Source: Candidatus Cryptobacteroides sp. (GTDB lineage Bacteria; Bacteroidota; Bacteroidia; Bacteroidales; UBA932). From it: a stretch of 64,000 bases of DNA. The translations under genes were made by a program, and so were the position numbers. Location of the stretch: the NCBI GenBank assembly GCA_045130395.1, contig JBGUPS010000014.1, positions 22,228-86,227 on the forward strand, written 5' to 3'. The first letter of the stretch is position 1. Each line of letters starts with the position of its first letter. The notes under the pieces are model-generated. The model worked only from the letters and a program-made list of their open reading frames with translations. It was not told the origin of the DNA and did not search any database. Positions 5,880 through 28,190 of the stretch are shown here, piece by piece.

Positions 5880-7886
5880 ATGGTTACGCGTAGAACAATC
5901 ATTTGGAGCGCCTCCGTGGCGATGCTCCTGGCGTTCCTCCTGGGTTGTGGGCCTACAAGGAAGCTCGGGCAGATCCGTCAGCAGGAACTGGCGGCTACGC
6001 TCGCCTTGTCCCGGAACGAAATCGAGGAGGAACGCAAGGTCATCGCGGTGGCCCGTCGGGACACCCTTACGGTGAAGGACGACAGCGGCAACACGGTGCT
6101 CATCATGAAGGCCGTCAAGGACGAGGCCTCAGGCGAAATGGTGGCTACAGACGTGCTGGATGCGGCGGTGATTACCGCCCGGTTCCGGAACGTGGCCGAA
6201 AGGAACGGCCGGATCGACCTTCGTTTTGAAATTATCGTCCCGGCACTGATGCAGGACACCCGCTGGCAGCTCCGTTTTTACCCGGAGATGTACATTCTGG
6301 AAGATTCTCTCGCCTTGGAACCCGTGCTCATCACGGGCAGCCAGTACCGCCGGCAGCAGCTGCGCGGCTACCAGCAGTACGAGAAATTCCTGAGGAGCAT
6401 CATCACGGACAGCACCCGCTTCCTGGACTACCGCAACCTGGAAATCTTCATCCGCCGCAACATCCCCGAGCTGTATGCCCTCAAGGCCGATTCCAGCTTT
6501 GTCTCGGACGATGCCTTCCGTTCGCTGTACGGCGTCACGGAGCGAGCCGCCATCGACCATTATACCAACCAGTTTGGGAAAAGCCTGAATGAGCGGCGGA
6601 AAAGCCGCCAGGATGCCATGTTCGCGCGGTATGTGAAGGTTCCTATCGTCACGGAAGGAATCCGGCTGGATACCGTTTTGCAGAACGCCGACGGGGATTT
6701 CGTGTACCATTACACGCAGCGAATTACCACGCGGCCCAAGCTGCGGAAAGTGGACGTGGTGCTGTCGGGGGAGATTTTCGAGAGCGACCAGCGGCTCTAT
6801 TCCATGGCCCGCTCACAACCGCTCACCTTCTACATCAGTTCCTTGTCCTCGTTCACGGATGGGACCGAACGCTACCTGACCCGCACCATCGAACGGCGTG
6901 CGGCGGCCAATACGGCCTGTTACGTGGATTTCCGGAGCGGGAAGTCCGAGGTGGAACCTTCTTTGGGGAACAACCGGGACGAGCTGGCGCGGATTCGTGA
7001 GAACATCGTCCAGCTGCTTTCCAACGCGACTTTCGAGCTGGATTCCATCGTGATTGCGACTTCGGCCTCCCCGGAAGGGACGCAGGCGGCCAACGATGCC
7101 CTGGCTAAACAGCGGGCAGGCTCCGTGGCTGCGTACTTCGACCGCTTCATCCGTTCCTACCGCGACTCGGTGCAGCGGGCGCTGGACCTGGAGGCCCGGA
7201 ACAGTTTTACCCTGACTGTCGGGGATGATGGAAAGGAGACGATGGGGCGCGCGAAAGCCCGGAAAGCGGACTTCCCCGCCATTGCCTTCAGTTCACGCTC
7301 GGCGGGTGAAAACTGGGACCTGTTATCGTATCTGGTAGACAGCGATTCCGTACTTACCGCATCGCAGAAGATGGCCTATGTCAAATGCTTACAAATCAAC
7401 GACTTGGACCAGCGGGAAAAGGAACTATCCCAGCGCGCTTTCTACCCCCGTTTGCGGGAGGTCCTCTACCCTCGCCTGCGCACCGTCCGCTTCGACTTTT
7501 TCCTCCACCGGAGGGGCCTTATCCAAGAGACGGTGCAGACGACGGAACTGGACACTACGTACATGAAGGGCGTCGCCGCGCTCAAAGACCGCGACTACAA
7601 ACTGGCCCTCACCTATCTGAAGGATTACAAAGACTACAATACCGCCATCGCCTATGTGTCGCTGGATTACAACGCCTCGGCCATAGCCATCCTGCAAGGT
7701 CTGGAACGGACGGCGCCGGTGAATTACATGCTCGCCATCGTGTATGCCCGCAACCAGGACGACCAGAATGCGGTCCAGTGTTATCTGGATGCCTGTAAAC
7801 AAGACCACAGCTATGTTTTCCGTGGAAATCTGGATCCCGAAATCTACGTCCTCATCCAGCGCTATGGCCTCAACAAAGACGAATAA
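5880..7886 (+). CDS. pilus-locus lipoprotein with OmpA-like segment and TPR-like C-terminus
   Basis: Lipobox LLGC; SASPEG..N..LA.QRA motif of the OmpA-like domain seen in Mfa loci; helical C-terminus. Confidence 0.65.
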   Translation: MVTRRTIIWSASVAMLLAFLLGCGPTRKLGQIRQQELAATLALSRNEIEEERKVIAVARRDTLTVKDDSGNTVLIMKAVKDEASGEMVATDVLDAAVITARFRNVAERNGRIDLRFEIIVPALMQDTRWQLRFYPEMYILEDSLALEPVLITGSQYRRQQLRGYQQYEKFLRSIITDSTRFLDYRNLEIFIRRNIPELYALKADSSFVSDDAFRSLYGVTERAAIDHYTNQFGKSLNERRKSRQDAMFARYVKVPIVTEGIRLDTVLQNADGDFVYHYTQRITTRPKLRKVDVVLSGEIFESDQRLYSMARSQPLTFYISSLSSFTDGTERYLTRTIERRAAANTACYVDFRSGKSEVEPSLGNNRDELARIRENIVQLLSNATFELDSIVIATSASPEGTQAANDALAKQRAGSVAAYFDRFIRSYRDSVQRALDLEARNSFTLTVGDDGKETMGRAKARKADFPAIAFSSRSAGENWDLLSYLVDSDSVLTASQKMAYVKCLQINDLDQREKELSQRAFYPRLREVLYPRLRTVRFDFFLHRRGLIQETVQTTELDTTYMKGVAALKDRDYKLALTYLKDYKDYNTAIAYVSLDYNASAIAILQGLERTAPVNYMLAIVYARNQDDQNAVQCYLDACKQDHSYVFRGNLDPEIYVLIQRYGLNKDE

Positions 7887-20068: not shown

Positions 20069-20169
20069 CGTCATGTCGATTATTTAGGTCGATAAACTCG
20101 TCATGCCCGCCCCAGCACCTTGTCATACCCAACCCGAACATCGTCATGCCCGGCCTGATCGGGCATCTC
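20069..20169 (+). repeat. REP-like cluster
   Basis: Degenerate GTCAT half-sites ending in GTCATGCCCGGCCTGATCGGGCATCTC (20143-20169). Confidence 0.7.
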
Positions 20170-20180
20170 TCCCCTGTCCA

Positions 20181-20315
20181 GCCGCGATTACATCTGGAAC
20201 GGCCTCAAATAACGATTTTTTGTAAACGCGGTACGGATTTCAGCCCTTTTACATATAATCGCGGCCGCGATTGCAGCCCCAATACCGCAGAACAGCGTTT
20301 TTTTGCAAACGCGGC
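20181..20315 (+). repeat. about 135-bp four-arm repeat, copy 3
   Basis: Same architecture and orientation as copies 1 and 2. Confidence 0.8.
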
Positions 20316-20330
20316 CGAAGCGCCTCCCTC

Positions 20331-20421
20331 CGTCATGCCTCCCTCGCCCCGGTGATGCCCTCCCTGCATCCCGTCATTCCCGACCTGCACCCCGTCATGC
20401 CCGGCCCCGACCGGGCATCTC
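20331..20421 (+). repeat. REP-like cluster at the left edge of the R-M island
   Basis: About 21-bp period GTCATGCC-like half-sites, then the 28-bp palindrome at 20394-20421. Confidence 0.8.
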
Positions 20422-20502
20422 TTGCTCGGTCGCATCATGCCTCAATTCTTTCGAGAGTTGAGGCTTTTTCGTTATCTTTGTATATACCCATCCAAAGCAA
20501 TT

Positions 20503-21237
20503 ATGAACGAAGACCTTTTAAATCTCCATTTCTCGCCGATCCGAGACTACAAATACGCCAGTTTCTTCGAAGATGTGCAGTACAATGGCAAGATACTCTC
20601 AGACAAGGAGCGAAAAGAATATGTAGCCATAATCGACGAAACCATAGCGAATTACACCGAAGGTCTTCCCCTCATGTACGACATATTGGAAAGTACCAAA
20701 GACAAGCAGGACGAGTATCACGAAATTGACCGAACAGTCGTTTCCGTGATGCAATTTGTACTTATAACAATGATAGACAGTATGGTGGCCAGCAAATACT
20801 TCATTCTGGCTGATAGGGACTATGACAAGCGTTTCATGCGAGGCAAACTGATGGTCATCCTCAACGAGGGCTTTAAGCGCCTGTATGGCTTTAAAGAGAA
20901 GAACCGCAAGAGGTCTGAATGGAATCGGCTCATGCCACTGATGGATTACTTCCCGAAGAAGATTATTCGCCAGTATCAGGAATTAACATATCTTTTGCAA
21001 AGGCACGCAAAATCCTCCTCTTGGTGGAAGGATGAACGAGACTATGAGACACACTTGGATACGGAAAAATTGTATGTCTCTCGTCAGGAAGAAATCATTG
21101 AGAGCAAGGTGATGATAGACTCGATGAAACTGTTTAACACGCTGTTAGCTGTTAATGATTTCCTGTCTAATCTCCACACCTGCCTCTACAACTATGTAGT
21201 TGACAAATATAATCGCGGAGAATTGAGATACGAGTAA
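20503..21237 (+). CDS. hypothetical alpha-helical protein with an RxxxxH motif (HEPN-like)
   Basis: WWKDERDYETHLD (R-x4-H) in a helical-looking low-GC ORF; TATCTTTG promoter at 20473-20480. Confidence 0.45.
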   Translation: MNEDLLNLHFSPIRDYKYASFFEDVQYNGKILSDKERKEYVAIIDETIANYTEGLPLMYDILESTKDKQDEYHEIDRTVVSVMQFVLITMIDSMVASKYFILADRDYDKRFMRGKLMVILNEGFKRLYGFKEKNRKRSEWNRLMPLMDYFPKKIIRQYQELTYLLQRHAKSSSWWKDERDYETHLDTEKLYVSRQEEIIESKVMIDSMKLFNTLLAVNDFLSNLHTCLYNYVVDKYNRGELRYE

Positions 21238-21355: not shown

Positions 21356-24300
21356 ATGGCCGAACTAACCATAGCCAAGTCCTTAAATAAGGCATATCGT
21401 CAGGTCTCTGTAGACCGGCCCATCTTCGACGGCTTCAAAGCCCAACTTCGTAACTATTACGAGCAAATTTCTGTCATAAATACGGAAGAAAAGCTCAAAG
21501 GTGACCTGATGGACTTTCTGAAATTTACGTTTTACGGCCATAATTATAAGGTTTCCCCCAACGGTGATATTGACTGCGCCATTCATCTAGGTGTTAGTGT
21601 TGAAACCCCTGTGGGTGTCATCTTTGAGGTAAAGAAGCCCACCAACACAAACGAAATGATCACGAAGGAGGATCTTAACCGAAAAGCCCTTCAGGAACTT
21701 CTGCTTTACTATCTTCGCGAACGCCACACCAAAAAAAACATACAGTTAAAGCAGTTAATCGTCACAAACATCTATGAGTACTTTGTCTTTGATGCTCGGG
21801 AGTTTGAGCGCCTTTTCTATTCCAACAAAAAGCTCATCAAGTGCTTTGAGGATTTTAACAGCGGAGCTCTGACCTCAGAAAAGACGGATTTCTTCTACAG
21901 GGAGATTGCTTCAGAATTTATTGCGAAAGTCGTAGACCAGATTACGTACACCTGGTTTGACATACGCAAATACAAGTCCTTCCTTGATACTGGCAATGAC
22001 AAGCGCCTCATTGAACTATTCAAGTTCTTCAGTCCTGAGCACTTGCTAAAGAAACGTTTCCAGAACGACAGCAACTCTCTCAACACCAAGTTCTACAGCG
22101 AACTGCTTTATATCATCGGACTGGAAGAAGTGGTGGAGAAGGAAAGCAACAAGCACATCATCACCCGCCGCAAGAAAGAAGAACGCAACCAGGCATCTAT
22201 TTTAGAAAACGCTATCACCATACTCGATAGCGAAGACTGGCTGGATAATGTCAAAGATCGTTTTTCCTTTGGGAAAGACCGCCAGGAGCAACTATTCAGT
22301 GTTGCCCTCGCGCTCACCATAGGCTGGGTAAATCGCGTCCTTTTCCTGAAACTCCTGGAAGCTCAATTGGTAAATTATCACAAAGGTGATCAGAGCTACG
22401 CCTTTATGCGTCCGTCAGTCATCTCTGACTATGACGAACTCAACAAACTCTTCTTTCAGGTCCTTGCCAAGCGTATTGCTGACCGACCGGAAAGTATCAA
22501 TTCTAAATATGGAAAAGTCCCTTACCTAAACAGCTCTCTGTTTGAGATTGGCCCTCTGGAGCGCCAAACCATCCGTATCAGCAGTCTTGAAAATAGCGAG
22601 CTCCCTCTGTTTAGTGGAACTGTACTCAAGGACGGTCAGAAACCTCGTTACGCCAAACTACCTACACTTCGCTATCTGTTGGAATTCCTCGATGCATATA
22701 ACTTCGCCAGCGAGGGCTCTGAGGAAGTGCAAGAACAGGCCAAGACACTCATCAACGCCTCCGTGCTAGGGCTTATATTCGAGAAGATCAACGGGCATCG
22801 AGACGGATCGGTCTTCACGCCTGGCGCTGTAACGATGTATATGAGTCGCGAGGCTATCCGACAGACCGTCGTCCGTCGCTTCAATGAAGAATTAGGCTGG
22901 TCATGCAAAGACTATGAGGCTTTGAAGAACAAGGACATCGAAGATTATGGTAAAGCGAATGCTATAATTGACTCACTCCGCATTTGCGACCCCGCAGTAG
23001 GCTCAGGCCACTTCCTCGTGTCTGTTCTTAATGAAATCATCCGCACGAAGTACGACCTTGGTATCCTTATCGACGATTCTGGCAAACGCATCAAAAAGCA
23101 GGACTACACGATTGATATTGAGAACGATGAACTGCTTATCTCCGATGAAGACGGCAATCCCGTTAATTATAATCCTGGAAACCAAGAGAGTCAACGCATC
23201 CAAGAAACTCTATTCAACGAGAAGCGCAAAATCATCGAGAATTGCCTTTTCGGAGTAGACCTCAACCCTAACGCTGTCAACATCTGCCGCCTCCGTCTGT
23301 GGATTGAGTTGCTAAAAAACGCATACTACACCAAAGATAGTGACTACACTGAGTTGGAGACCCTGCCAAACATTGACATCAATATTAAGGTAGGTAACTC
23401 GCTTTTGCACCGCTTTGACTTGGGGCAGGACATCTCTGAAATCCTCCGTAAGAATGGTATCTCCATCAATGACTACCGTAAGGCAGTTAGTGATTATAAG
23501 AATGCTCACAACAAAGAAGAGAAACGTAATCTGGAAAACTACCTGCGTCAAATTAAAGGGAATCTTCGCACCCAGATTGGTCTAAAAGACCCTAAAGTGG
23601 TTAGTCTTAATAAACTGAAAGACGAACTGGACAACCTTTTAGCTCCCCAACTTTTTGAGATTAGCAAGAAAGAGAAAGCTCAGCGTGATAAACAAGCAAA
23701 GGAACTGCAAGTCAAGATTGATAAGATTCAGGCAGAGGTAGATGAAATAAGGGACAACAAGATCTTCGTTGGTGCTTTTGAATGGCTCATCGAGTTTCCT
23801 GAGGTCCTGGATGAAGATGGTCGCTTCGTCGGATTCGACTGTGTTATTGGCAATCCTCCTTACATCCAACTCCAAAAGATGGGGGCAGATGCCGATGCGC
23901 TCCAGAAGATGAACTACGAGACATACGAGCGTACCGGAGATATCTATTGCCTGTTCTATGAGATGGGACTGAAACTTCTAAAGCAAGGAGCACTACTGTC
24001 TTTCATTACCTCAAACAAGTGGATGAGAGCCGGTTATGGTAAATCTTTGCGAAAGTATCTTTCTTCCAAATACAATCCTACGCTGTTGATCGACTTTGCA
24101 AACAATAAGATTTTTGATTCGGCGACTGTCTTGGTAAATATTCTTTCGTTAGAGAAATGCAACAATCAGGGGCAAACACTATCTTGTTCCGTTGAGGACG
24201 GTTTTGATATAAGTAAATTGAGCGATTATGTGCAGACACACATACAGGTATCGTCTTTCCAAACTGATGATGCTTGGTCTATTTTGAGTGAAATTGAACT

Positions 24301-25156
24301 TAGTATAAAGCGTAAGATTGAGGAGGCAGGAGTACCTCTCAAGGATTGGGATGTGGAAATGTACCGAGGTGTTCTTACGGGATACAATGATGCGTTCATT
24401 ATAACATCTGATAAACGTGAAGAGATCTTGATGAGTTGTGCTGATGAATTCGAGAGAGAAAGGACGGCGGAAATCATTCGACCGATTCTACGTGGCCGAG
24501 ACATCAAGCGTTACGGTTACGAGTGGGCAGACCAGTATATCATAGCCACATTCCCATCCCGCCAGTATGACATAGATAATTATCCTACTCTTAGGGAGTA
24601 TCTTCTGTCTTTTGGCATTGAACGCCTGGAGCAAACAGGGAAAGAGTACTTTATAAATGGTGAGAAGGTAAAAGCCCGTAAGAAAACCAACAATAAATGG
24701 TTTGAAACTCAGGATAACATCAGTTATTGGGACGAATTTTTGAAGCCAAAGATTATTTACCCTAACATGACTAAGTTTTTACCCTTCGTCTATGACACAT
24801 CTGGCCTTGTCACAAACCAGAAGTGCTTTATTATCACGGGTAAACGACTTGCATTCCTCACGGCGTTTTTAAATTCGTCCCTTTTCAAATTTTGTTTTGC
24901 CGACAAGTTTCCCGAACTGCAGGGTAAAACAAGAGAACTTAGTAAAATATTTATGGAGGAGATCCCTGTAATGGAAGTTAGTGAGGACGATGAAGCTCGA
25001 TTCCTCAAGATGGTTGAGGCAACCCAGGAGAGTATCTCGAAAGAAAAACTCTTAGAGATTGATAATGCCATCTTCGACCTGTACCAACTAACAAAGGTAG
25101 AGAGAGACTATGTCGGTTTTATTGATTACGGAGATATGCAAGCTCTTTCTCAGTAA
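21356..25156 (+). CDS. Type IIG restriction-modification enzyme (nuclease, N6-adenine MTase, TaqI-C-like specificity domain)
   Basis: N-terminal D..IH....IFEVKKP..QELLLYY nuclease-like motif; CDPAVGSGHF (motif I); VIGNPPY (motif IV); C-terminal PILRGRDI..Y and KIIYP TRD-type motifs. Confidence 0.92.
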   Translation: MAELTIAKSLNKAYRQVSVDRPIFDGFKAQLRNYYEQISVINTEEKLKGDLMDFLKFTFYGHNYKVSPNGDIDCAIHLGVSVETPVGVIFEVKKPTNTNEMITKEDLNRKALQELLLYYLRERHTKKNIQLKQLIVTNIYEYFVFDAREFERLFYSNKKLIKCFEDFNSGALTSEKTDFFYREIASEFIAKVVDQITYTWFDIRKYKSFLDTGNDKRLIELFKFFSPEHLLKKRFQNDSNSLNTKFYSELLYIIGLEEVVEKESNKHIITRRKKEERNQASILENAITILDSEDWLDNVKDRFSFGKDRQEQLFSVALALTIGWVNRVLFLKLLEAQLVNYHKGDQSYAFMRPSVISDYDELNKLFFQVLAKRIADRPESINSKYGKVPYLNSSLFEIGPLERQTIRISSLENSELPLFSGTVLKDGQKPRYAKLPTLRYLLEFLDAYNFASEGSEEVQEQAKTLINASVLGLIFEKINGHRDGSVFTPGAVTMYMSREAIRQTVVRRFNEELGWSCKDYEALKNKDIEDYGKANAIIDSLRICDPAVGSGHFLVSVLNEIIRTKYDLGILIDDSGKRIKKQDYTIDIENDELLISDEDGNPVNYNPGNQESQRIQETLFNEKRKIIENCLFGVDLNPNAVNICRLRLWIELLKNAYYTKDSDYTELETLPNIDINIKVGNSLLHRFDLGQDISEILRKNGISINDYRKAVSDYKNAHNKEEKRNLENYLRQIKGNLRTQIGLKDPKVVSLNKLKDELDNLLAPQLFEISKKEKAQRDKQAKELQVKIDKIQAEVDEIRDNKIFVGAFEWLIEFPEVLDEDGRFVGFDCVIGNPPYIQLQKMGADADALQKMNYETYERTGDIYCLFYEMGLKLLKQGALLSFITSNKWMRAGYGKSLRKYLSSKYNPTLLIDFANNKIFDSATVLVNILSLEKCNNQGQTLSCSVEDGFDISKLSDYVQTHIQVSSFQTDDAWSILSEIELSIKRKIEEAGVPLKDWDVEMYRGVLTGYNDAFIITSDKREEILMSCADEFERERTAEIIRPILRGRDIKRYGYEWADQYIIATFPSRQYDIDNYPTLREYLLSFGIERLEQTGKEYFINGEKVKARKKTNNKWFETQDNISYWDEFLKPKIIYPNMTKFLPFVYDTSGLVTNQKCFIITGKRLAFLTAFLNSSLFKFCFADKFPELQGKTRELSKIFMEEIPVMEVSEDDEARFLKMVEATQESISKEKLLEIDNAIFDLYQLTKVERDYVGFIDYGDMQALSQ
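24220..24241 (+). repeat. left 22-bp inversion repeat inside the R-M gene
   Basis: GAGCGATTATGTGCAGACACAC, encoding S-D-Y-V-Q-T-H; exact reverse complement of 25962-25983. Confidence 0.95.
24476..24504 (+). repeat. nested 29-bp inverted repeat, left copy
   Basis: ATTCGACCGATTCTACGTGGCCGAGACAT; exact reverse complement of 25699-25727. Confidence 0.9.
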
Positions 25157-25982
25157 AGTCAAACATTGATTCAACAATCTCCTCTAATTGCTTTTCCTTC
25201 AGGCCATCTGAAGCCTCCGAGTTAAGCACCTTTTCAATTGATGCCACGACATCTTCCCGAGGCTGCGGTACGGGAATCTGTTCTACAAACATAGGCTTAT
25301 ACTCAAAGAATCCGCCGTTTCTTACGACACCCAGATTTCGGATGTAGTAGTCAGCCACCTTTGAGTTTAGTACTGCCAAAAGGTATTGACTTCCAGGGAC
25401 AATCATACATGCTGGGGCGTTGATAAACATGTTCTCGGGAGCCATTGCATAGCTACCTCTGGCATTGAGATTACCCCAAACTATTTTTGTCTTCGAAAAT
25501 TCGTCCACATAAGCGCAGTTCCTAAGATTGTATGGAGTATCTCCTTTGTCAGCGCGAGATTCAATCTTATCCCAGTAATAATCAAGATGTTGCTTGATTG
25601 CCGGATAATCTTCAATCTTTATTCGTTCCATGGAGTCTTTCACCCCATTATGAGTGTTGATGAGCCATAAATCAGCCCAATCATAACCGTATCGCCTTAT
25701 GTCTCGGCCACGTAGAATCGGTCGAATAATTTCTGCCGTACTCTGTCGCTCATCATCACAGTGGCAAGATTTAAGGATCTCGTTTCGTTTGGCAGAATCA
25801 ATGATAAAAGCATCATTAAATCCCGTCTTGATGCCATAATTGATTTGGATATCCCAATCCCTTAGGGGAGCGCCTATGGCTTCAATCTTTGCCATAATAG
25901 ATCGTTCTATATCGGATAGTATAGACCAGGATTCCGATGATGCGAAGTGGGAATTAACCGCGTGTGTCTGCACATAATCGCT
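25119..25982 (-). CDS. silent alternative C-terminal specificity module of the Type IIG enzyme
   Basis: No MTase or nuclease motifs; begins at the IR with SDYVQTH in frame; paralogous to residues about 956-1266 of the R-M protein (WSILS.IE.SI..KIE, LRDWD, GFNDAFII, RPILRGRDI.RYGY.WAD). Confidence 0.85.
   Translation of the reverse strand, partial: SDYVQTHAVNSHFASSESWSILSDIERSIMAKIEAIGAPLRDWDIQINYGIKTGFNDAFIIDSAKRNEILKSCHCDDERQSTAEIIRPILRGRDIRRYGYDWADLWLINTHNGVKDSMERIKIEDYPAIKQHLDYYWDKIESRADKGDTPYNLRNCAYVDEFSKTKIVWGNLNARGSYAMAPENMFINAPACMIVPGSQYLLAVLNSKVADYYIRNLGVVRNGGFFEYKPMFVEQIPVPQPREDVVASIEKVLNSEASDGLKEKQLEEIVESMFDFTEKELAYLRNQ
25699..25727 (-). repeat. nested 29-bp inverted repeat, right copy
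   Basis: ATGTCTCGGCCACGTAGAATCGGTCGAAT. Confidence 0.9.
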
Positions 25983-25983
25983 C
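25962..25983 (-). repeat. right 22-bp inversion repeat
   Basis: GTGTGTCTGCACATAATCGCTC; directly abuts the recombinase stop codon (25984-25986). Confidence 0.95.
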
Positions 25984-26589
25984 CTATTCTTTCAGAAAAG
26001 AATGAATATACCTGCCCAGAGTGTTCCGGTCAACCTTGCAGATCTTTGCAATCTTCCGCTGTGATACTCCGGCCTGAAGCAATTCTATAATCAGAGTCCG
26101 TTTGGGGAAGAGTTTGCGCTTGCTTTCCTTGGTCTTCCTACCAAGAGGACGCCCAAGTATTACACCTTCAGCTTTCTTTCTTGCCAGTGCTTCCTTTGTT
26201 CGCTGGCTAATGAGATTGCGTTCTATCTCAGCAGAGAGGCCAAAAGCGAAGGCCAGCACTTTACTCTGAATGTCCTCACCAAGTCTATAATTGTCCTTGA
26301 TAGTCCACACCCTGCAATCCTTCGTCATACAGATGTTGAGAATCTCCATAATCATAAATAGATTACGTCCTAACCGGGAGAGCTCGGCGCAAATAATCAA
26401 ATCATCTTTCTGTACCCGGTTCAACAGACGTCCCAACTCACGCTTGTTGTAATTCTTTGTTCCGCTAATGGTTTCTTCTATCCAGCCGTCTATACTCATA
26501 GACTCCTTGGAGCAGAAGTTATTGATTTCAAACCTTTGATTTTCAACAGTCTGTTTGTCACTGCTGACTCTGATGTAGCCGTAAATCAT
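25984..26589 (-). CDS. serine site-specific recombinase/invertase, Mpi family
   Basis: MIYGYIRVSSDKQTVENQRFEI (catalytic Ser), ELSRLGRN, SKVLAFAFGLSAEIERNLISQRTKEAL, C-terminal HTH. Confidence 0.92.
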   Translation of the reverse strand: MIYGYIRVSSDKQTVENQRFEINNFCSKESMSIDGWIEETISGTKNYNKRELGRLLNRVQKDDLIICAELSRLGRNLFMIMEILNICMTKDCRVWTIKDNYRLGEDIQSKVLAFAFGLSAEIERNLISQRTKEALARKKAEGVILGRPLGRKTKESKRKLFPKRTLIIELLQAGVSQRKIAKICKVDRNTLGRYIHSFLKE

Positions 26590-26866: not shown

Positions 26867-27607
26867 ATGGACTGGAGTATCATTCAACTGTTTCTCGTAA
26901 TTATTACTCCTTTCGCTCTCGTTATTATATGGCGTAGGACGAAAGGGAAACGGGGTGAGAAGCAGGTGGCCGTCCTACTATCACTCTTACCCAAGAAGCG
27001 ATATAGGGTTATTAATGATCTTTTACTACTATCAGGAGGACATAGCACACAGATAGATCACGTGGTTGTTTCTATTTATGGCATCTTTGTCATTGAAACA
27101 AAATACTATCAAGGATGGATATATGGAGGTGAGAACAGTGAATACTGGACGCAAAACATTTATGGGCACAAGTACCAACTCCGTAACCCTCTATGGCAAA
27201 ATCAGGGTCACTGCAAAGCAATTGCTAAACTGATCGGTGATAATGGATCCATACCTATTCATAGTATTGTCGCTTTCTCGCGCCAGGCCAGCCTTAAAGT
27301 AGACCGATCACTTCCTGTTATGTATTGGTGGCGTGTAGTACCATTCATCAAGGGTTTCAAGCAATCGGTGATAACAGATATACAAGCCGAAGACGTCTAT
27401 AATTTGCTCCTATCAGCAAATGTGACCGATAAGAAAGCAAGAAAGCAGCACGTATCCAGCGTGAAGCATAATCAAGCCCGTCGTAACACTGACGTTGCTA
27501 ATGGAAGATGTCCTCGTTGTGGAGGCAGTTTAGTGCTTCGAAATGGCAAGTATGGTCGTTTTTATGGCTGCTCACATTATCCAAATTGTAAATACATTTT
27601 GAAATAG
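26867..27607 (+). CDS. NERD-domain nuclease-like protein with a topoisomerase-type C4 zinc finger
   Basis: N-terminal TM; GE..V, QIDHVVVS.YGIFVIETK, NPL.QN..H; CPRCGG.LVLR.GKYG.FYGCS.YP.C. Confidence 0.88.
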   Translation: MDWSIIQLFLVIITPFALVIIWRRTKGKRGEKQVAVLLSLLPKKRYRVINDLLLLSGGHSTQIDHVVVSIYGIFVIETKYYQGWIYGGENSEYWTQNIYGHKYQLRNPLWQNQGHCKAIAKLIGDNGSIPIHSIVAFSRQASLKVDRSLPVMYWWRVVPFIKGFKQSVITDIQAEDVYNLLLSANVTDKKARKQHVSSVKHNQARRNTDVANGRCPRCGGSLVLRNGKYGRFYGCSHYPNCKYILK

Positions 27608-27793
27608 ATTAGTTTGTCCCCCACCATAACCCTTTTAGCAGCAAATACTTTGAGGAGAGCGGCTTACGCTCGCAGGAAACATCGTCATAAGAACTAGGCA
27701 TGACGGAGGGGGTACACTCAAACAGCAGGGTACCGTCGTTAGAGGCAGATTTTGACGGAGGGGGGCCAGGCAGGCGGCAGGGGTCCGGCGGAA

Positions 27794-27821
27794 GAGATGC
27801 CCGGTCGGGGCCGGGCATGAC
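27794..27821 (-). repeat. REP-like palindrome at the right edge of the R-M island
   Basis: Exact reverse complement of 20394-20421 and 17812-17839. Confidence 0.8.
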
Positions 27822-28090
27822 GGGAAAGGGTTGTATTGCAAGGAGCATAACATTCCGTTCTAATATTTGACAGGAAGATACAACTACCTTATACCTGCAA
27901 CGGCTTCCGTTTGCGGGAAACATAGTCATTGGAGCCGGGCATGGCGAAAGAGGCTGGTATGCAAGTAGCTTATTTTCAGACTATTACGAGTATCGACACT
28001 CCCTCTTTTGAAGGGGGCTCGATTACTTATCTTACTGAGTATCTGCGGATTATGTGCCAGGCATAGCCGGCCATGATGACATGATGAAAA

Positions 28091-28172
28091 GAGATGGCCG
28101 ATCAGGTCGGCCATGACGGGAAGAAGCCGGGCATAAGGGAAAAGGAGATCCCGGGTCAAGCCCGGGATGAGG
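28091..28172 (-). repeat. REP-like cluster
   Basis: GAGATGGCCGATCAGGTCGGCCATGAC (28091-28117) and GATCCCGGGTCAAGCCCGGGATGAGG (28147-28172). Confidence 0.75.
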
Positions 28173-28190
28173 GGAAAGAGCCAGCCATGA

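What the first reader, a model, noticed from the sequence alone, without database searches (positions are those of the whole stretch)
24476..25727. Second, nested 29-bp perfect inverted repeat could give four specificity alleles
Seen: ATTCGACCGATTCTACGTGGCCGAGACAT (24476-24504) is exactly inverted at 25699-25727, in frame in both modules (IRPILRGRD). All synonymous positions are identical, whereas other conserved peptide blocks nearby (e.g. NDAFII, WSILS) have diverged at silent sites. Inference: this is a second crossover or gene-conversion point that splits the specificity region into two independently swappable parts (2x2 combinations). It shares only CGATT..GTG..AGACA fragments with the 22-bp repeat, so it may be RecA-dependent rather than an invertase site.
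Basis: partly seen in the sequence, partly recalled or inferred. Interest (0 to 1): 0.65.

Follow-up and report, generated by a model that had tools for sequence, protein, structure and literature searches.

The report
Middle inversion site of restriction-enzyme shufflon
The 29-base inverted repeat is real and is the middle of three nested DNA-inversion sites that let a gut bacterium reshuffle the DNA-recognition end of a restriction-modification enzyme; this kind of switch has already been described, so it is a good new example and not a new principle.

Summary
ATTCGACCGATTCTACGTGGCCGAGACAT (24476-24504) is exactly inverted at 25699-25727 and is in frame (IRPILRGRD) in both copies.

**Context**
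- The left copy lies in an intact 1266-aa Type IIG restriction-modification gene.
- The right copy lies in an inverted, promoterless cassette for the recognition domain.
- An Mpi-family serine invertase gene sits next to the cassette.

**Family pattern**
- In 51 related invertible loci, perfect inverted repeats fall at only three protein positions.
- These are S1 (SDYVQTH, the 22-mer), S2 (IRPILRG, this 29-mer) and S3 (W-E/D-D/E-F-x-K-P-K-I).

**Evidence that S2 recombines**
- Relatives carry orthologues of the window's six segments (A1, A2, A3 and B1, B2, B3) in complementary shuffled orders, such as A1-B2-A3 / B1-A2-B3.
- In rumen metagenomes of one relative, both orientations of the S2-bounded segment coexist in a single sample.

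**Limits and corrections**
- In the window's own sample only the S1 inversion is seen.
- A conserved DNA core (A/T-CGACCGATT, Arg codon CGA in 70 of 82 copies) occurs only in invertible loci.
- In several loci S2 is the outermost repeat, next to the invertase gene. Both points favour the invertase over RecA.
- Type IIG recognition-domain inversion with one or two repeat pairs is already published.

Verdict: new member of a known kind.

The parts
21356..25156 (+). Active Type IIG restriction-modification gene, 1266 aa: DUF7149, DUF7814, Eco57I-type N6-adenine methyltransferase, TaqI_C recognition domain
   Evidence: ORF list; Pfam hits; weak PglX-like NCBIfam hits; PDB sequence hits to M.BseCI, CamA and M.TaqI
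24220..24241 (+). S1 left arm: 22-nt perfect inverted repeat (SDYVQTH), the outer inversion site
   Evidence: In run X1 the unitigs break here, and a 38-nt alternative junction unitig (depth 4, against 10.7 for the flank) runs into the B module (GCGGTTAA)
24242..24475 (+). Segment A1 (78 aa), 55% identical to B1
   Evidence: Codon alignment; orthologues in relatives
24476..24504 (+). S2 left arm: the 29-nt perfect inverted repeat of the finding (IRPILRGRD)
   Evidence: position shared by 38 of 51 invertible loci
24478..24487 (+). Inferred S2 crossover core, TCGACCGATT (family consensus ACGACCGATT)
   Evidence: Inference. Repeats in some loci end at ..CGACCGATT and in others start at ATTCGACC / ACGACC. 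Homology of truncated silent cassettes begins at ACGACC. The Arg codon is CGA in 70 of 82 copies
24505..24729 (+). Segment A2 (75 aa), hypervariable: 18 identities with B2 over 59 aligned positions (about 31%; 23% of the 80 alignment columns)
24724..24758 (+). S3 left arm (YWDEFLKPKI), degenerate in this window: 28/35 identity with its partner, longest exact run 11 nt
   Evidence: (repeat I3); a perfect 22-38 nt repeat at this position in 32 of 51 relatives
24748..25156 (+). Segment A3 (C-terminal about 133 aa plus stop), 25% identical to B3
25119..25983 (-). Silent, promoterless inverted cassette B1-B2-B3 (TaqI_C). It starts at S1 and overlaps the active gene tail to tail by 38 nt
25478..25512 (-). 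S3 right arm (degenerate)
25699..25727 (-). S2 right arm: exact inverted copy of the 29-mer
25962..25983 (-). S1 right arm, directly abutting the stop codon of the invertase gene
   Evidence: X1 unitig break at 25954-25983
25984..26589 (-). Serine site-specific recombinase, 201 aa (Resolvase domain plus C-terminal HTH; YIRVSSDKQ motif). Passes the NCBIfam Mpi master DNA invertase model
   Evidence: Pfam; NCBIfam NF009949 at 335.8 bits against a cut-off of 272; nearest PDB sequences are a DNA-invertase (4m6f), Sin and gamma-delta resolvase

Best explanation
The 29-nt repeat is S2, the middle of three nested, in-frame inversion sites (S1, S2, S3) in an invertible Type IIG restriction-modification locus.

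The locus holds one expressed gene, whose recognition end is built from segments A1-A2-A3. It also holds one inverted silent cassette, B1-B2-B3.

Inversion between the two arms of any one site exchanges everything distal to that site between the expressed gene and the cassette, and keeps the reading frame. Inversion at S2 turns A1-A2-A3 / B1-B2-B3 into A1-B2-B3 / B1-A2-A3. The resulting hybrid ORF is intact at 1242 aa.

With S1 this gives four alleles. With a working S3 it would give eight.

I infer that the adjacent Mpi-family serine invertase catalyses the exchange, and that the crossover lies in the conserved core TCGACCGATT at the left end of the 29-mer. I infer that the remaining identical bases are a lineage-specific homogenised flank.

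Shown here:
- the anatomy of the locus;
- the S1 inversion in the window's own sample;
- S1, S2 and S3 inversions and reciprocal segment shuffling in orthologous loci.

Inferred:
- that S2 is still active in this strain;
- that the invertase, not RecA, does the exchange;
- the exact crossover position;
- that the hybrids have new recognition sequences.
For: 1. Anatomy. The locus has the IIG gene, the inverted TaqI_C cassette, and the invertase gene abutting S1.

2. Family pattern.
- About 50 loci from roughly 8 phyla share the layout of active gene, inverted cassette and invertase.
- Perfect repeats of 14 nt or more fall only at aa 955-963, 1036-1058 and 1124-1136.
- The counts are S1 33, S2 38 and S3 32 of 51 loci, with all three in 19. 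None falls between aa 1079 and 1123 or after aa 1137; one locus has a 14-nt repeat at aa 1073-1077.

3. Reciprocal shuffling of orthologous segments (74-86% nt identity to the window's).
- L080 and L081 are A1-B2-A3 / B1-A2-B3.
- L082 is B1-A2-A3 / A1-B2-B3.
- L001 is B1-A2-B3 / A1-B2-A3.
- L084 is A1-A2-B3.
- In every fully assembled locus, each segment is present exactly once. This fits inversion and does not fit gene conversion.

4. Heterogeneity in the L001 species (invertase 90% identical).
- In run X24 a 1280-nt unitig spans exactly from one S2 arm to the other.
- Native 35-nt junction unitigs are at 13.6x and 11.9x. Alternative ones are at 6.1x and 8.9x.
- The arms are 25 nt, shorter than the k of 31 inferred from the 30-nt unitig overlaps, so this is not a repeat artefact.
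- Other runs carry junction contigs inverted relative to L001: X26 and X28 at S2, X26 and X30 at S3, X30 and X32 at S1.

5. DNA-level constraint.
- R1042 is CGA in 70 of 82 copies in invertible loci.
- The two other Arg codons of the same motif are CGA in only 12 of 82 and 4 of 82.
- Of 13 homologues with no silent cassette in the fetched locus, 9 carry K or Q in place of R, with mixed codons.

6. S2 as the outer boundary. In L026, L057, L058 and L062 the silent cassette begins at S2, next to the invertase gene, and cassette homology starts at ACGACC.

7. Shared register. The position-frequency matrices of S1, S2 and S3 align on the same strand in one register, give or take 1 nt. The column-shuffle P values are 0.01, 0.01 and below 0.003.

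8. Frame. An in-silico S2 inversion gives an intact ORF.
Against: - In the window's own run, X1, unitigs 24212-25541 and 25512-25983 pass through both S2 arms without a branch. No S2 hybrid is detectable at about 9x, while S1 shows one.
- Logan contigs drop rare variants, so this sets only a rough upper limit on the hybrid frequency. No long or raw reads were available.
- A serine recombinase needs identity only at the 2-bp crossover, so a perfect 29 nt is more than the enzyme should require.
- Repeat lengths at S2 range from 14 to over 300 nt across loci. This looks more like homology-driven homogenisation.
- No clear internal dyad symmetry typical of hix or gix sites was found in S1, S2 or S3.
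- The motif shared by the three sites has only moderate statistical support.
- No methylation or activity data exist for any allele.
Confidence: 0.7

Rival explanations
1. S2 is a true exchange point, but the exchange is homologous (RecA-dependent) recombination or gene conversion between the short identical stretches. The invertase acts only at S1.
For: - Perfect identity at S2 is longer than a serine recombinase needs and varies from 14 to over 300 nt between loci.
- The identical stretch drifts left or right of the core in different lineages. This implies that conversion tracts do occur.
- There is a precedent: pneumococcal spnIII inversions persist without any known site-specific recombinase (PMC6620402, title and abstract).
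- In X1 only S1 switches.
Against: - Many S2 repeats are only 14-21 nt (L037, L064, L068, L073, L020). From general knowledge, that is below the length at which RecA-dependent recombination is efficient.
- Nucleotide-level conservation of CGACCGATT (CGA in 70 of 82 copies) is specific to invertible loci.
- S2 is the only or outermost repeat next to the invertase gene in several loci.
- In X24 S2 switches at roughly 40:60 while S1 and S3 do not.
- The arrangements are always reciprocal, with no duplicated segment as conversion would leave.
Confidence: 0.15
2. S2 was a crossover site in the ancestry of this locus but is no longer used in this strain. Under this view the 29-mer is a relic of a recent conversion, and only the S1 whole-cassette switch operates now.
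For: - No S2 junction is seen in X1 although an S1 junction is.
- The neighbouring S3 site has visibly decayed in this window, to 28/35 identity.
Against: - The 29-mer is perfect and keeps the conserved core.
- The invertase ORF is intact and passes the Mpi-family cut-off.
- Different samples of the relative show different sites switching: X24 shows only S2, X32 only S1, X30 shows S1 and S3. Seeing only S1 in one shallow sample is therefore not informative.
Confidence: 0.12
3. The repeat has no recombination role. It reflects a highly conserved peptide (IRPILRGRD) plus shared codon preference or chance.
For: - The peptide is nearly invariant in the family: R102, P103, L105, R106, G107 and D109 are invariant in alignment A1.
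- The within-locus shuffle test for a run of 9 identical codons gives only P = 0.07.
Against: - The same position carries perfect repeats in 38 of 51 loci.
- The orders of the orthologous segments switch exactly here.
- Inverted junctions at this site are seen directly in metagenomes.
- Other equally conserved blocks (G65..F74 NDAFII, DWD) rarely carry short repeats.
- Most homologues without a cassette use different residues and codons.
Confidence: 0.03

Closest known systems
Phase-variable Type IIG RM loci of Bacteroides fragilis (PVR2 and PVR3; PMC13064476, Eng Microbiol 2025)
   Same: A Type IIG enzyme whose sequence encoding the target recognition domain is inverted. The inversion is mediated by one or two pairs of inverted repeats and gives 2 or 4 genotypes.
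   Different: That paper reports genotypes from resequencing. As far as the passages I read show, it does not define a third site, conserved site cores or the recombinase family. I did not compare sequences with those loci, so orthology is untested.
Gene-altering programmed inversions in Type II RM genes (Milman et al., NAR 2023, PMC9881135)
   Same: [quoted passage not shown] Long reads confirmed that they exist in several coexisting inversion variants. Recombinase genes are enriched next to them, and nested repeat pairs were noted.
   Different: It is a survey. Nested close repeat pairs were merged, not dissected. It names recombinase target motifs as future work. It does not describe the three-site S1/S2/S3 layout or the CGACCGATT core.
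Type I hsdS shufflons (S. pneumoniae SpnD39III ivr locus; Mycoplasma pulmonis hsd; B. fragilis Type I, PMC7641763)
   Same: Several nested inverted-repeat pairs lie inside coding sequence and split the specificity determinant into independently exchangeable halves, giving 4-6 or more alleles. There is one expressed gene plus silent inverted partial copies, with an adjacent recombinase.
   Different: Those systems act on a separate S subunit with two recognition domains. They mostly use tyrosine recombinases (PsrA/CreX, HvsR; from general knowledge). Here the target is one TaqI-like recognition domain fused to the enzyme, cut into three pieces, with a serine recombinase.
Mpi, the master serine DNA invertase of B. 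fragilis
   Same: The window's recombinase passes the NCBIfam Mpi-family equivalog model. Mpi is a small serine recombinase that acts on many separate inverted-repeat pairs: 13 regions according to PMC4747536. This is a precedent for one enzyme serving several sites.
   Different: Mpi flips promoters at distant loci. Here the sites are in frame within a gene next to the recombinase. From memory, the Mpi repeat consensus is ARACGTWCGT. I could not verify that here, and it is not evidently the S1/S2/S3 motif.
Multiple-inversion systems of serine invertases in phage tail-fibre genes (Min of plasmid p15B; Gin, Cin, Pin)
   Same: A serine invertase acts on crossover sites lying inside coding sequence. 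It swaps C-terminal specificity segments of a protein, and with several sites it gives many isomers (general knowledge).
   Different: The target protein is different. Those systems need Fis and an enhancer and have 26-bp dyad-symmetric sites. Neither feature could be shown here.

Membership tests
Invertible (shufflon-type) Type IIG RM specificity locus | Full-length fused endonuclease-methyltransferase gene with a C-terminal target recognition domain | tested here: met
   A 1266-aa ORF carries Eco57I methyltransferase and TaqI_C domains. The N-terminal DUF7149 and DUF7814 domains are presumed to be the nuclease part. Nuclease motifs were not examined.
Invertible (shufflon-type) Type IIG RM specificity locus | Promoterless partial copy of the recognition region in inverted orientation | tested here: met
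   25119-25983 on the minus strand. It has a TaqI_C domain and starts exactly at S1, with stop codons upstream in frame.
Invertible (shufflon-type) Type IIG RM specificity locus | Inverted repeat pairs in the same reading phase in the gene and the cassette | tested here: met
   S1 (22 nt) and S2 (29 nt) are perfect and S3 is 28/35. The phases are equal, and a simulated S2 inversion gives an intact 1242-aa ORF.
Invertible (shufflon-type) Type IIG RM specificity locus | Adjacent site-specific recombinase | tested here: met
   25984-26589 on the minus strand, with a Resolvase domain plus HTH. A homologue lies next to the cassette in about 48 related loci.
Invertible (shufflon-type) Type IIG RM specificity locus | Both orientations coexist in a population, at the specific repeat in question (S2) | tested here: inconclusive
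   In this window's sample, X1, an alternative junction is seen at S1 and not at S2, at about 9x depth and from contigs only. In the orthologous locus L001, S2 junctions of both orientations coexist in X24, and inverted S2 junctions occur in X26 and X28.
Invertible (shufflon-type) Type IIG RM specificity locus | Alleles differ in methylated or cleaved sequence | not testable with these tools
   There are no methylome or enzyme data. The only support is that A2/B2 and A3/B3 are about 31% and 25% identical over aligned positions.
Mpi-family serine DNA invertase | Sequence passes the curated family model; N-terminal catalytic serine motif; C-terminal HTH | tested here: met
   NF009949 scores 335.8 bits against a cut-off of 272. 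The YIRVSSDKQ motif lies at residues 5-13. HTH_23 and HTH_7 match at residues 163-199.
Mpi-family serine DNA invertase | Catalyses inversion at the observed repeats | not testable with these tools
   Inferred only from adjacency, co-occurrence and conserved site cores.
Hin/Gin-type invertase system | 26-bp dyad-symmetric crossover sites with a 2-bp core, plus a Fis-bound enhancer | tested here: inconclusive
   The only dyad is a short one, TCG-AC-CGA, in the window's S2. It is not conserved in the family consensus ATACGACCGATT. No enhancer search was possible.

The most novel reading that the evidence does not exclude
One small Mpi-family serine invertase recognises three different in-frame sites that share a motif of about 16 nt: AAttTGAGCGtTTTTG, tATaCGACCgATTtTg and TATTgGGAgGATTTTT. 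The sites are embedded in three conserved peptide motifs of a TaqI-like recognition domain, so a single fused domain is cut into three independently exchangeable pieces, giving 8 specificities from 2 cassettes. The DNA site in turn constrains the protein: Arg encoded by CGA in invertible loci, Lys or Gln in most homologues without a cassette. This module has spread across about 8 bacterial phyla. The literature I could search describes neither the three-site layout nor the site cores.
Probability: 0.45. Interest if true: 0.55.

Novelty: new member of a known kind. Interest (0 to 1): 0.4.

Why it matters
The result shows that a fused Type IIG enzyme can diversify its target sequence combinatorially from only two cassettes, in the way Type I systems do with their S subunits. 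That affects phage defence and possibly epigenetic phase variation in gut and rumen Bacteroidales.

In practice, S1, S2 and S3 explain why assemblies of these loci break at aa 961 and aa 1043. They also show that gene callers report chimeric or truncated 'hypothetical' TaqI_C ORFs at such loci. The conserved cores give a simple signature for finding these switches and for building locked variants that map which segment reads which bases.

Tried and rejected
- The exact 29-mer in JGI metagenome contigs: no match. No further samples of this strain could be examined.
L001 was used instead.
- Structure prediction, to ask which segment contacts DNA, was unavailable.
- PDB sequence hits (M.BseCI, CamA, M.TaqI) cover only parts of segment 1 and the S3 region, so no contact map could be drawn. 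A literature search for the BseCI structure paper gave nothing useful.
- The Mpi repeat consensus that I recalled could not be verified, so it is not used as evidence.
- I looked for hix/gix-like dyad symmetry in S1, S2 and S3. Only a short TCG-AC-CGA dyad turned up in the window's S2, and it is not conserved, so I dropped it.
- Breaks at S2 in runs X2, X3 and X5, mapped on the window at 85-90% identity, were ambiguous. Several strains are mixed there, and in X2 the shared stretch is 30 nt, equal to k-1. I therefore did not use them and relied on the 97%-identity mapping to L001.
- Furuta et al. 2010 (PMC2853133) reports allelic diversity in Type IIG recognition domains but no inversion mechanism.
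Full report
**1. The observation**

The 29-mer ATTCGACCGATTCTACGTGGCCGAGACAT at 24476-24504 is the exact reverse complement of 25699-25727. The identity stops at both ends. The 29-mer has no other copy in the window, even with three mismatches. It lies inside an 80-nt, 85%-identical inverted repeat.

Both arms are read in the same codon phase as IRPILRGRD. Conserved blocks such as NDAFII and WSILS differ at silent positions. Outside the two perfect repeats, only 39 of 94 conserved degenerate codons are identical.

Nine identical codons at a fixed place has P of about 4e-4. A run that long anywhere in the alignment has a shuffle P of only 0.07. Taken alone, the locus is suggestive and not compelling.

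**2. The surroundings**

- 21356-25156 (+) is an intact 1266-aa Type IIG restriction-modification gene. Its domains are DUF7149, DUF7814, an Eco57I-type methyltransferase and a TaqI_C recognition domain.
- 25119-25983 (-) is a promoterless inverted copy of the last 288 codons or so. It begins exactly at the 22-nt perfect repeat, 24220-24241 / 25962-25983, which encodes SDYVQTH.
- 25984-26589 (-) abuts that repeat and encodes a 201-aa serine recombinase. It passes the NCBIfam 'master DNA invertase Mpi family' model at 335.8 bits against a cut-off of 272. Its nearest solved relatives are a DNA-invertase (4m6f), Sin and gamma-delta resolvase.

I call the 22-mer S1 and the 29-mer S2. A third, degenerate repeat is S3, at 24724-24758 / 25478-25512 (28/35 identity, encoding YWDEF.K.KI). 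These three sites divide each module into segments 1, 2 and 3. Aligned positions of A and B are about 55%, 31% and 25% identical in those segments.

**3. Relatives**

A scan of one genome per species returned 79 loci. About 50 have the same layout of active gene, inverted cassette and a homologous invertase (61-93% identical). By their record titles they come from Bacteroidota, Verrucomicrobiota, Spirochaetota, Bacillota, Chloroflexota, Cloacimonadota, Elusimicrobiota and a cyanobacterial MAG.

I mapped every perfect inverted repeat of 14 nt or more onto the window protein. The distribution has three peaks:

| Site | Position (aa) | Loci with a perfect repeat (of 51) |
|---|---|---|
| S1 | 955-963 | 33 |
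| S2 | 1036-1058 | 38 |
| S3 | 1124-1136 | 32 |

All three sites carry a repeat in 19 loci. No repeat falls between aa 1079 and 1123 or after aa 1137; a single locus has a 14-nt repeat at aa 1073-1077. S2 is therefore the most frequent repeat position in the family.

Several silent cassettes are truncated. They begin exactly at S2 (L026, L057, L058, L062 and others) or at S3, next to the invertase gene. Public contigs also end at aa 961 (L006, L007, L014) and at aa 1043 (L002). Assemblies would be expected to break at sites where orientation varies.

**4. Direct evidence that S2 is a crossover point**

A protein search with the C-terminal 417 aa found close relatives whose three segments match the window's A or B versions in mixed order. 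Their contigs show that the arrangements are reciprocal:

| Locus | Active gene | Silent cassette |
|---|---|---|
| window | A1-A2-A3 | B1-B2-B3 |
| L080, L081 | A1-B2-A3 | B1-A2-B3 |
| L082 | B1-A2-A3 | A1-B2-B3 |
| L001 | B1-A2-B3 | A1-B2-A3 |
| L083 | B1-A2-B3 | contig incomplete |
| L084 | A1-A2-B3 | contig incomplete |

In every fully assembled locus, each of the six segments is present exactly once. Nested inversions at S1, S2 and S3 predict this. Gene conversion would not.

Variation is also seen within and between samples. Run X24 carries L001 at 99% of sampled words. The evidence there is as follows:

- A 1280-nt unitig runs exactly from the left S2 arm to the right S2 arm, at depth 23.3.
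- Two native 35-nt junction unitigs flank it, at 13.6x and 11.9x.
- Two alternative 35-nt junction unitigs are also present, at 6.1x and 8.9x.
- The arms are 25 nt, shorter than the k of 31 that I infer from the 30-nt unitig overlaps. A junction unitig of 30+30-25 = 35 nt is the expected signature of real alternative junctions.

Other runs carry contigs joined on opposite strands relative to L001. Each such joint shows a different arrangement in that sample, but not by itself coexistence with the L001 form:

- at S2: X26, and X28 with both reciprocal joints;
- at S3: X26 and X30;
- at S1: X30 and X32.

**5. This window's own sample**

Run X1 holds the region at 99% of sampled words. Its unitigs break at both S1 arms. 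A 38-nt junction unitig (30+30-22), at depth 4 against 10.7 for the flank, leads from the conserved gene body into the B module (GCGGTTAA). The S1 inversion is therefore seen.

Unitigs 24212-25541 and 25512-25983 pass through both S2 arms unbranched. No S2 hybrid is detectable at about 9x in contig-level data. This is weak negative evidence, because different samples of the L001 species show different subsets of sites switching.

**6. Invertase or RecA?**

Three observations favour the invertase.

First, there is nucleotide-level constraint. In 82 S2 copies from invertible loci, the Arg of I-R-P-I is CGA in 70. The two other arginines of the same motif are CGA in only 12 and 4. Of 13 homologues with no silent cassette in the fetched locus, 9 have Lys or Gln there, with mixed codons.

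Second, the repeats in different loci extend either leftwards and end at ..CGACCGATT, or rightwards and start at ATTCGACC or ACGACC. The homology of truncated cassettes starts at ACGACC. The only stretch common to all is about ACGACCGATT. In the window this is TCGACCGATT at 24478-24487, where I place the crossover.

Third, the position-frequency matrices of S1, S2 and S3 align on the same strand in one register, give or take 1 nt:

- S1: AAttTGAGCGtTTTTG
- S2: tATaCGACCgATTtTg
- S3: TATTgGGAgGATTTTT

The column-shuffle P values are 0.01, 0.01 and below 0.003.

Three points count against the invertase.

- A serine recombinase needs only a 2-bp overlap, so the long and variable perfect stretches imply that some homology-driven homogenisation also occurs.
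- No convincing dyad symmetry was found.
- No experiment is available.

**7. Comparison with what is known**

- Milman et al. (PMC9881135) predicted Eco57I-domain and Cj0031-like Type II RM genes as major targets of gene-altering programmed inversions. They confirmed several with long reads, including loci with more than two variants.
- A 2025 study of B. fragilis (PMC13064476) reports two Type IIG loci whose recognition-domain sequences invert through one or two repeat pairs, giving 2 or 4 genotypes.
- Mpi is a serine invertase that serves 13 separate regions (PMC4747536).

The kind of system, including the idea that two repeat pairs give four alleles, is therefore already published.

I did not find three things in the papers I could search: the conserved three-site layout, the site cores and their imprint on the protein sequence, and the breadth across phyla.

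**8. Verdict**

- The core of the interpretation (a second, independent crossover point) is supported through orthologous loci. It is not shown for this strain.
- The RecA suggestion is disfavoured.
- The allele count is four here, and eight where S3 is intact.
- Novelty: new member of a known kind. Interest is moderate.

Noticed in passing
window 20090-20425 and 27690-28180: The IIG gene, cassette, invertase and a NERD gene form a low-GC island (about 40-46% GC, against about 55% for the window). GC-rich hairpin repeats built on CGTCATGCCCGG..CCGGGCAT flank it, including a 33-nt perfect inverted repeat at 20391-20423 / 27792-27824. The 12-mer occurs 8 times in the window against 0.5 expected. 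These may be REP-like elements or the ends of a mobile island. In relatives the RM module sits in a different neighbourhood; L080 has ribosomal protein L19 upstream.
   Followed up: partly
window 24724-24758 / 25478-25512: A third nested repeat, S3 (YWDEFLKPKI / YVDEFSKTKI), is degenerate here: 28/35 identity, with a longest exact run of 11 nt. It is a perfect 22-38 nt repeat in 32 of 51 related loci, and inverted junctions at it are seen in metagenomes of the L001 species.
   Followed up: yes
window 26867-27607 (+): Next to the invertase is a 246-aa protein with a NERD nuclease-related domain and a topoisomerase-type C4 zinc ribbon. It has weak similarity to the NERD parts of MADS6 and PglW defence kinases. 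It may be another defence-associated gene on the island.
   Followed up: no
run X1, contig mapped at window 24215-24241 and 24463-24498: The source sample holds a further 513-nt contig (depth 4.8). It shares only the S1 and S2 sequences with the window, has 221 unrelated bases between them and has a different upstream flank containing a stop codon. It is probably a third cassette or a second related locus in the community.
   Followed up: no
L080 5940-5950 (also L081): In this close relative, found in two independent samples, the IIG gene carries an in-frame TAA (..APQLF*ISKKE.., where the window has E). The enzyme is truncated there, although the cassette, repeats and invertase are intact.
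   Followed up: partly
window 25119-25156: The active gene and the silent cassette converge and overlap tail to tail by 38 nt. The same 38-nt overlap is present in L080, L081, L082, L083 and L084, so the centre of the invertible segment is tightly packed and conserved.
   Followed up: no
L069 5980-6180: The 100-nt stretch that contains S1 is duplicated in tandem at the start of the active module. Both copies pair perfectly with the single arm at 7651-7750.
   Followed up: no
window 20422-21237 (+): A 271-aa ORF lies directly upstream of the IIG gene, inside the low-GC island. It has no Pfam or NCBIfam match.
   Followed up: no
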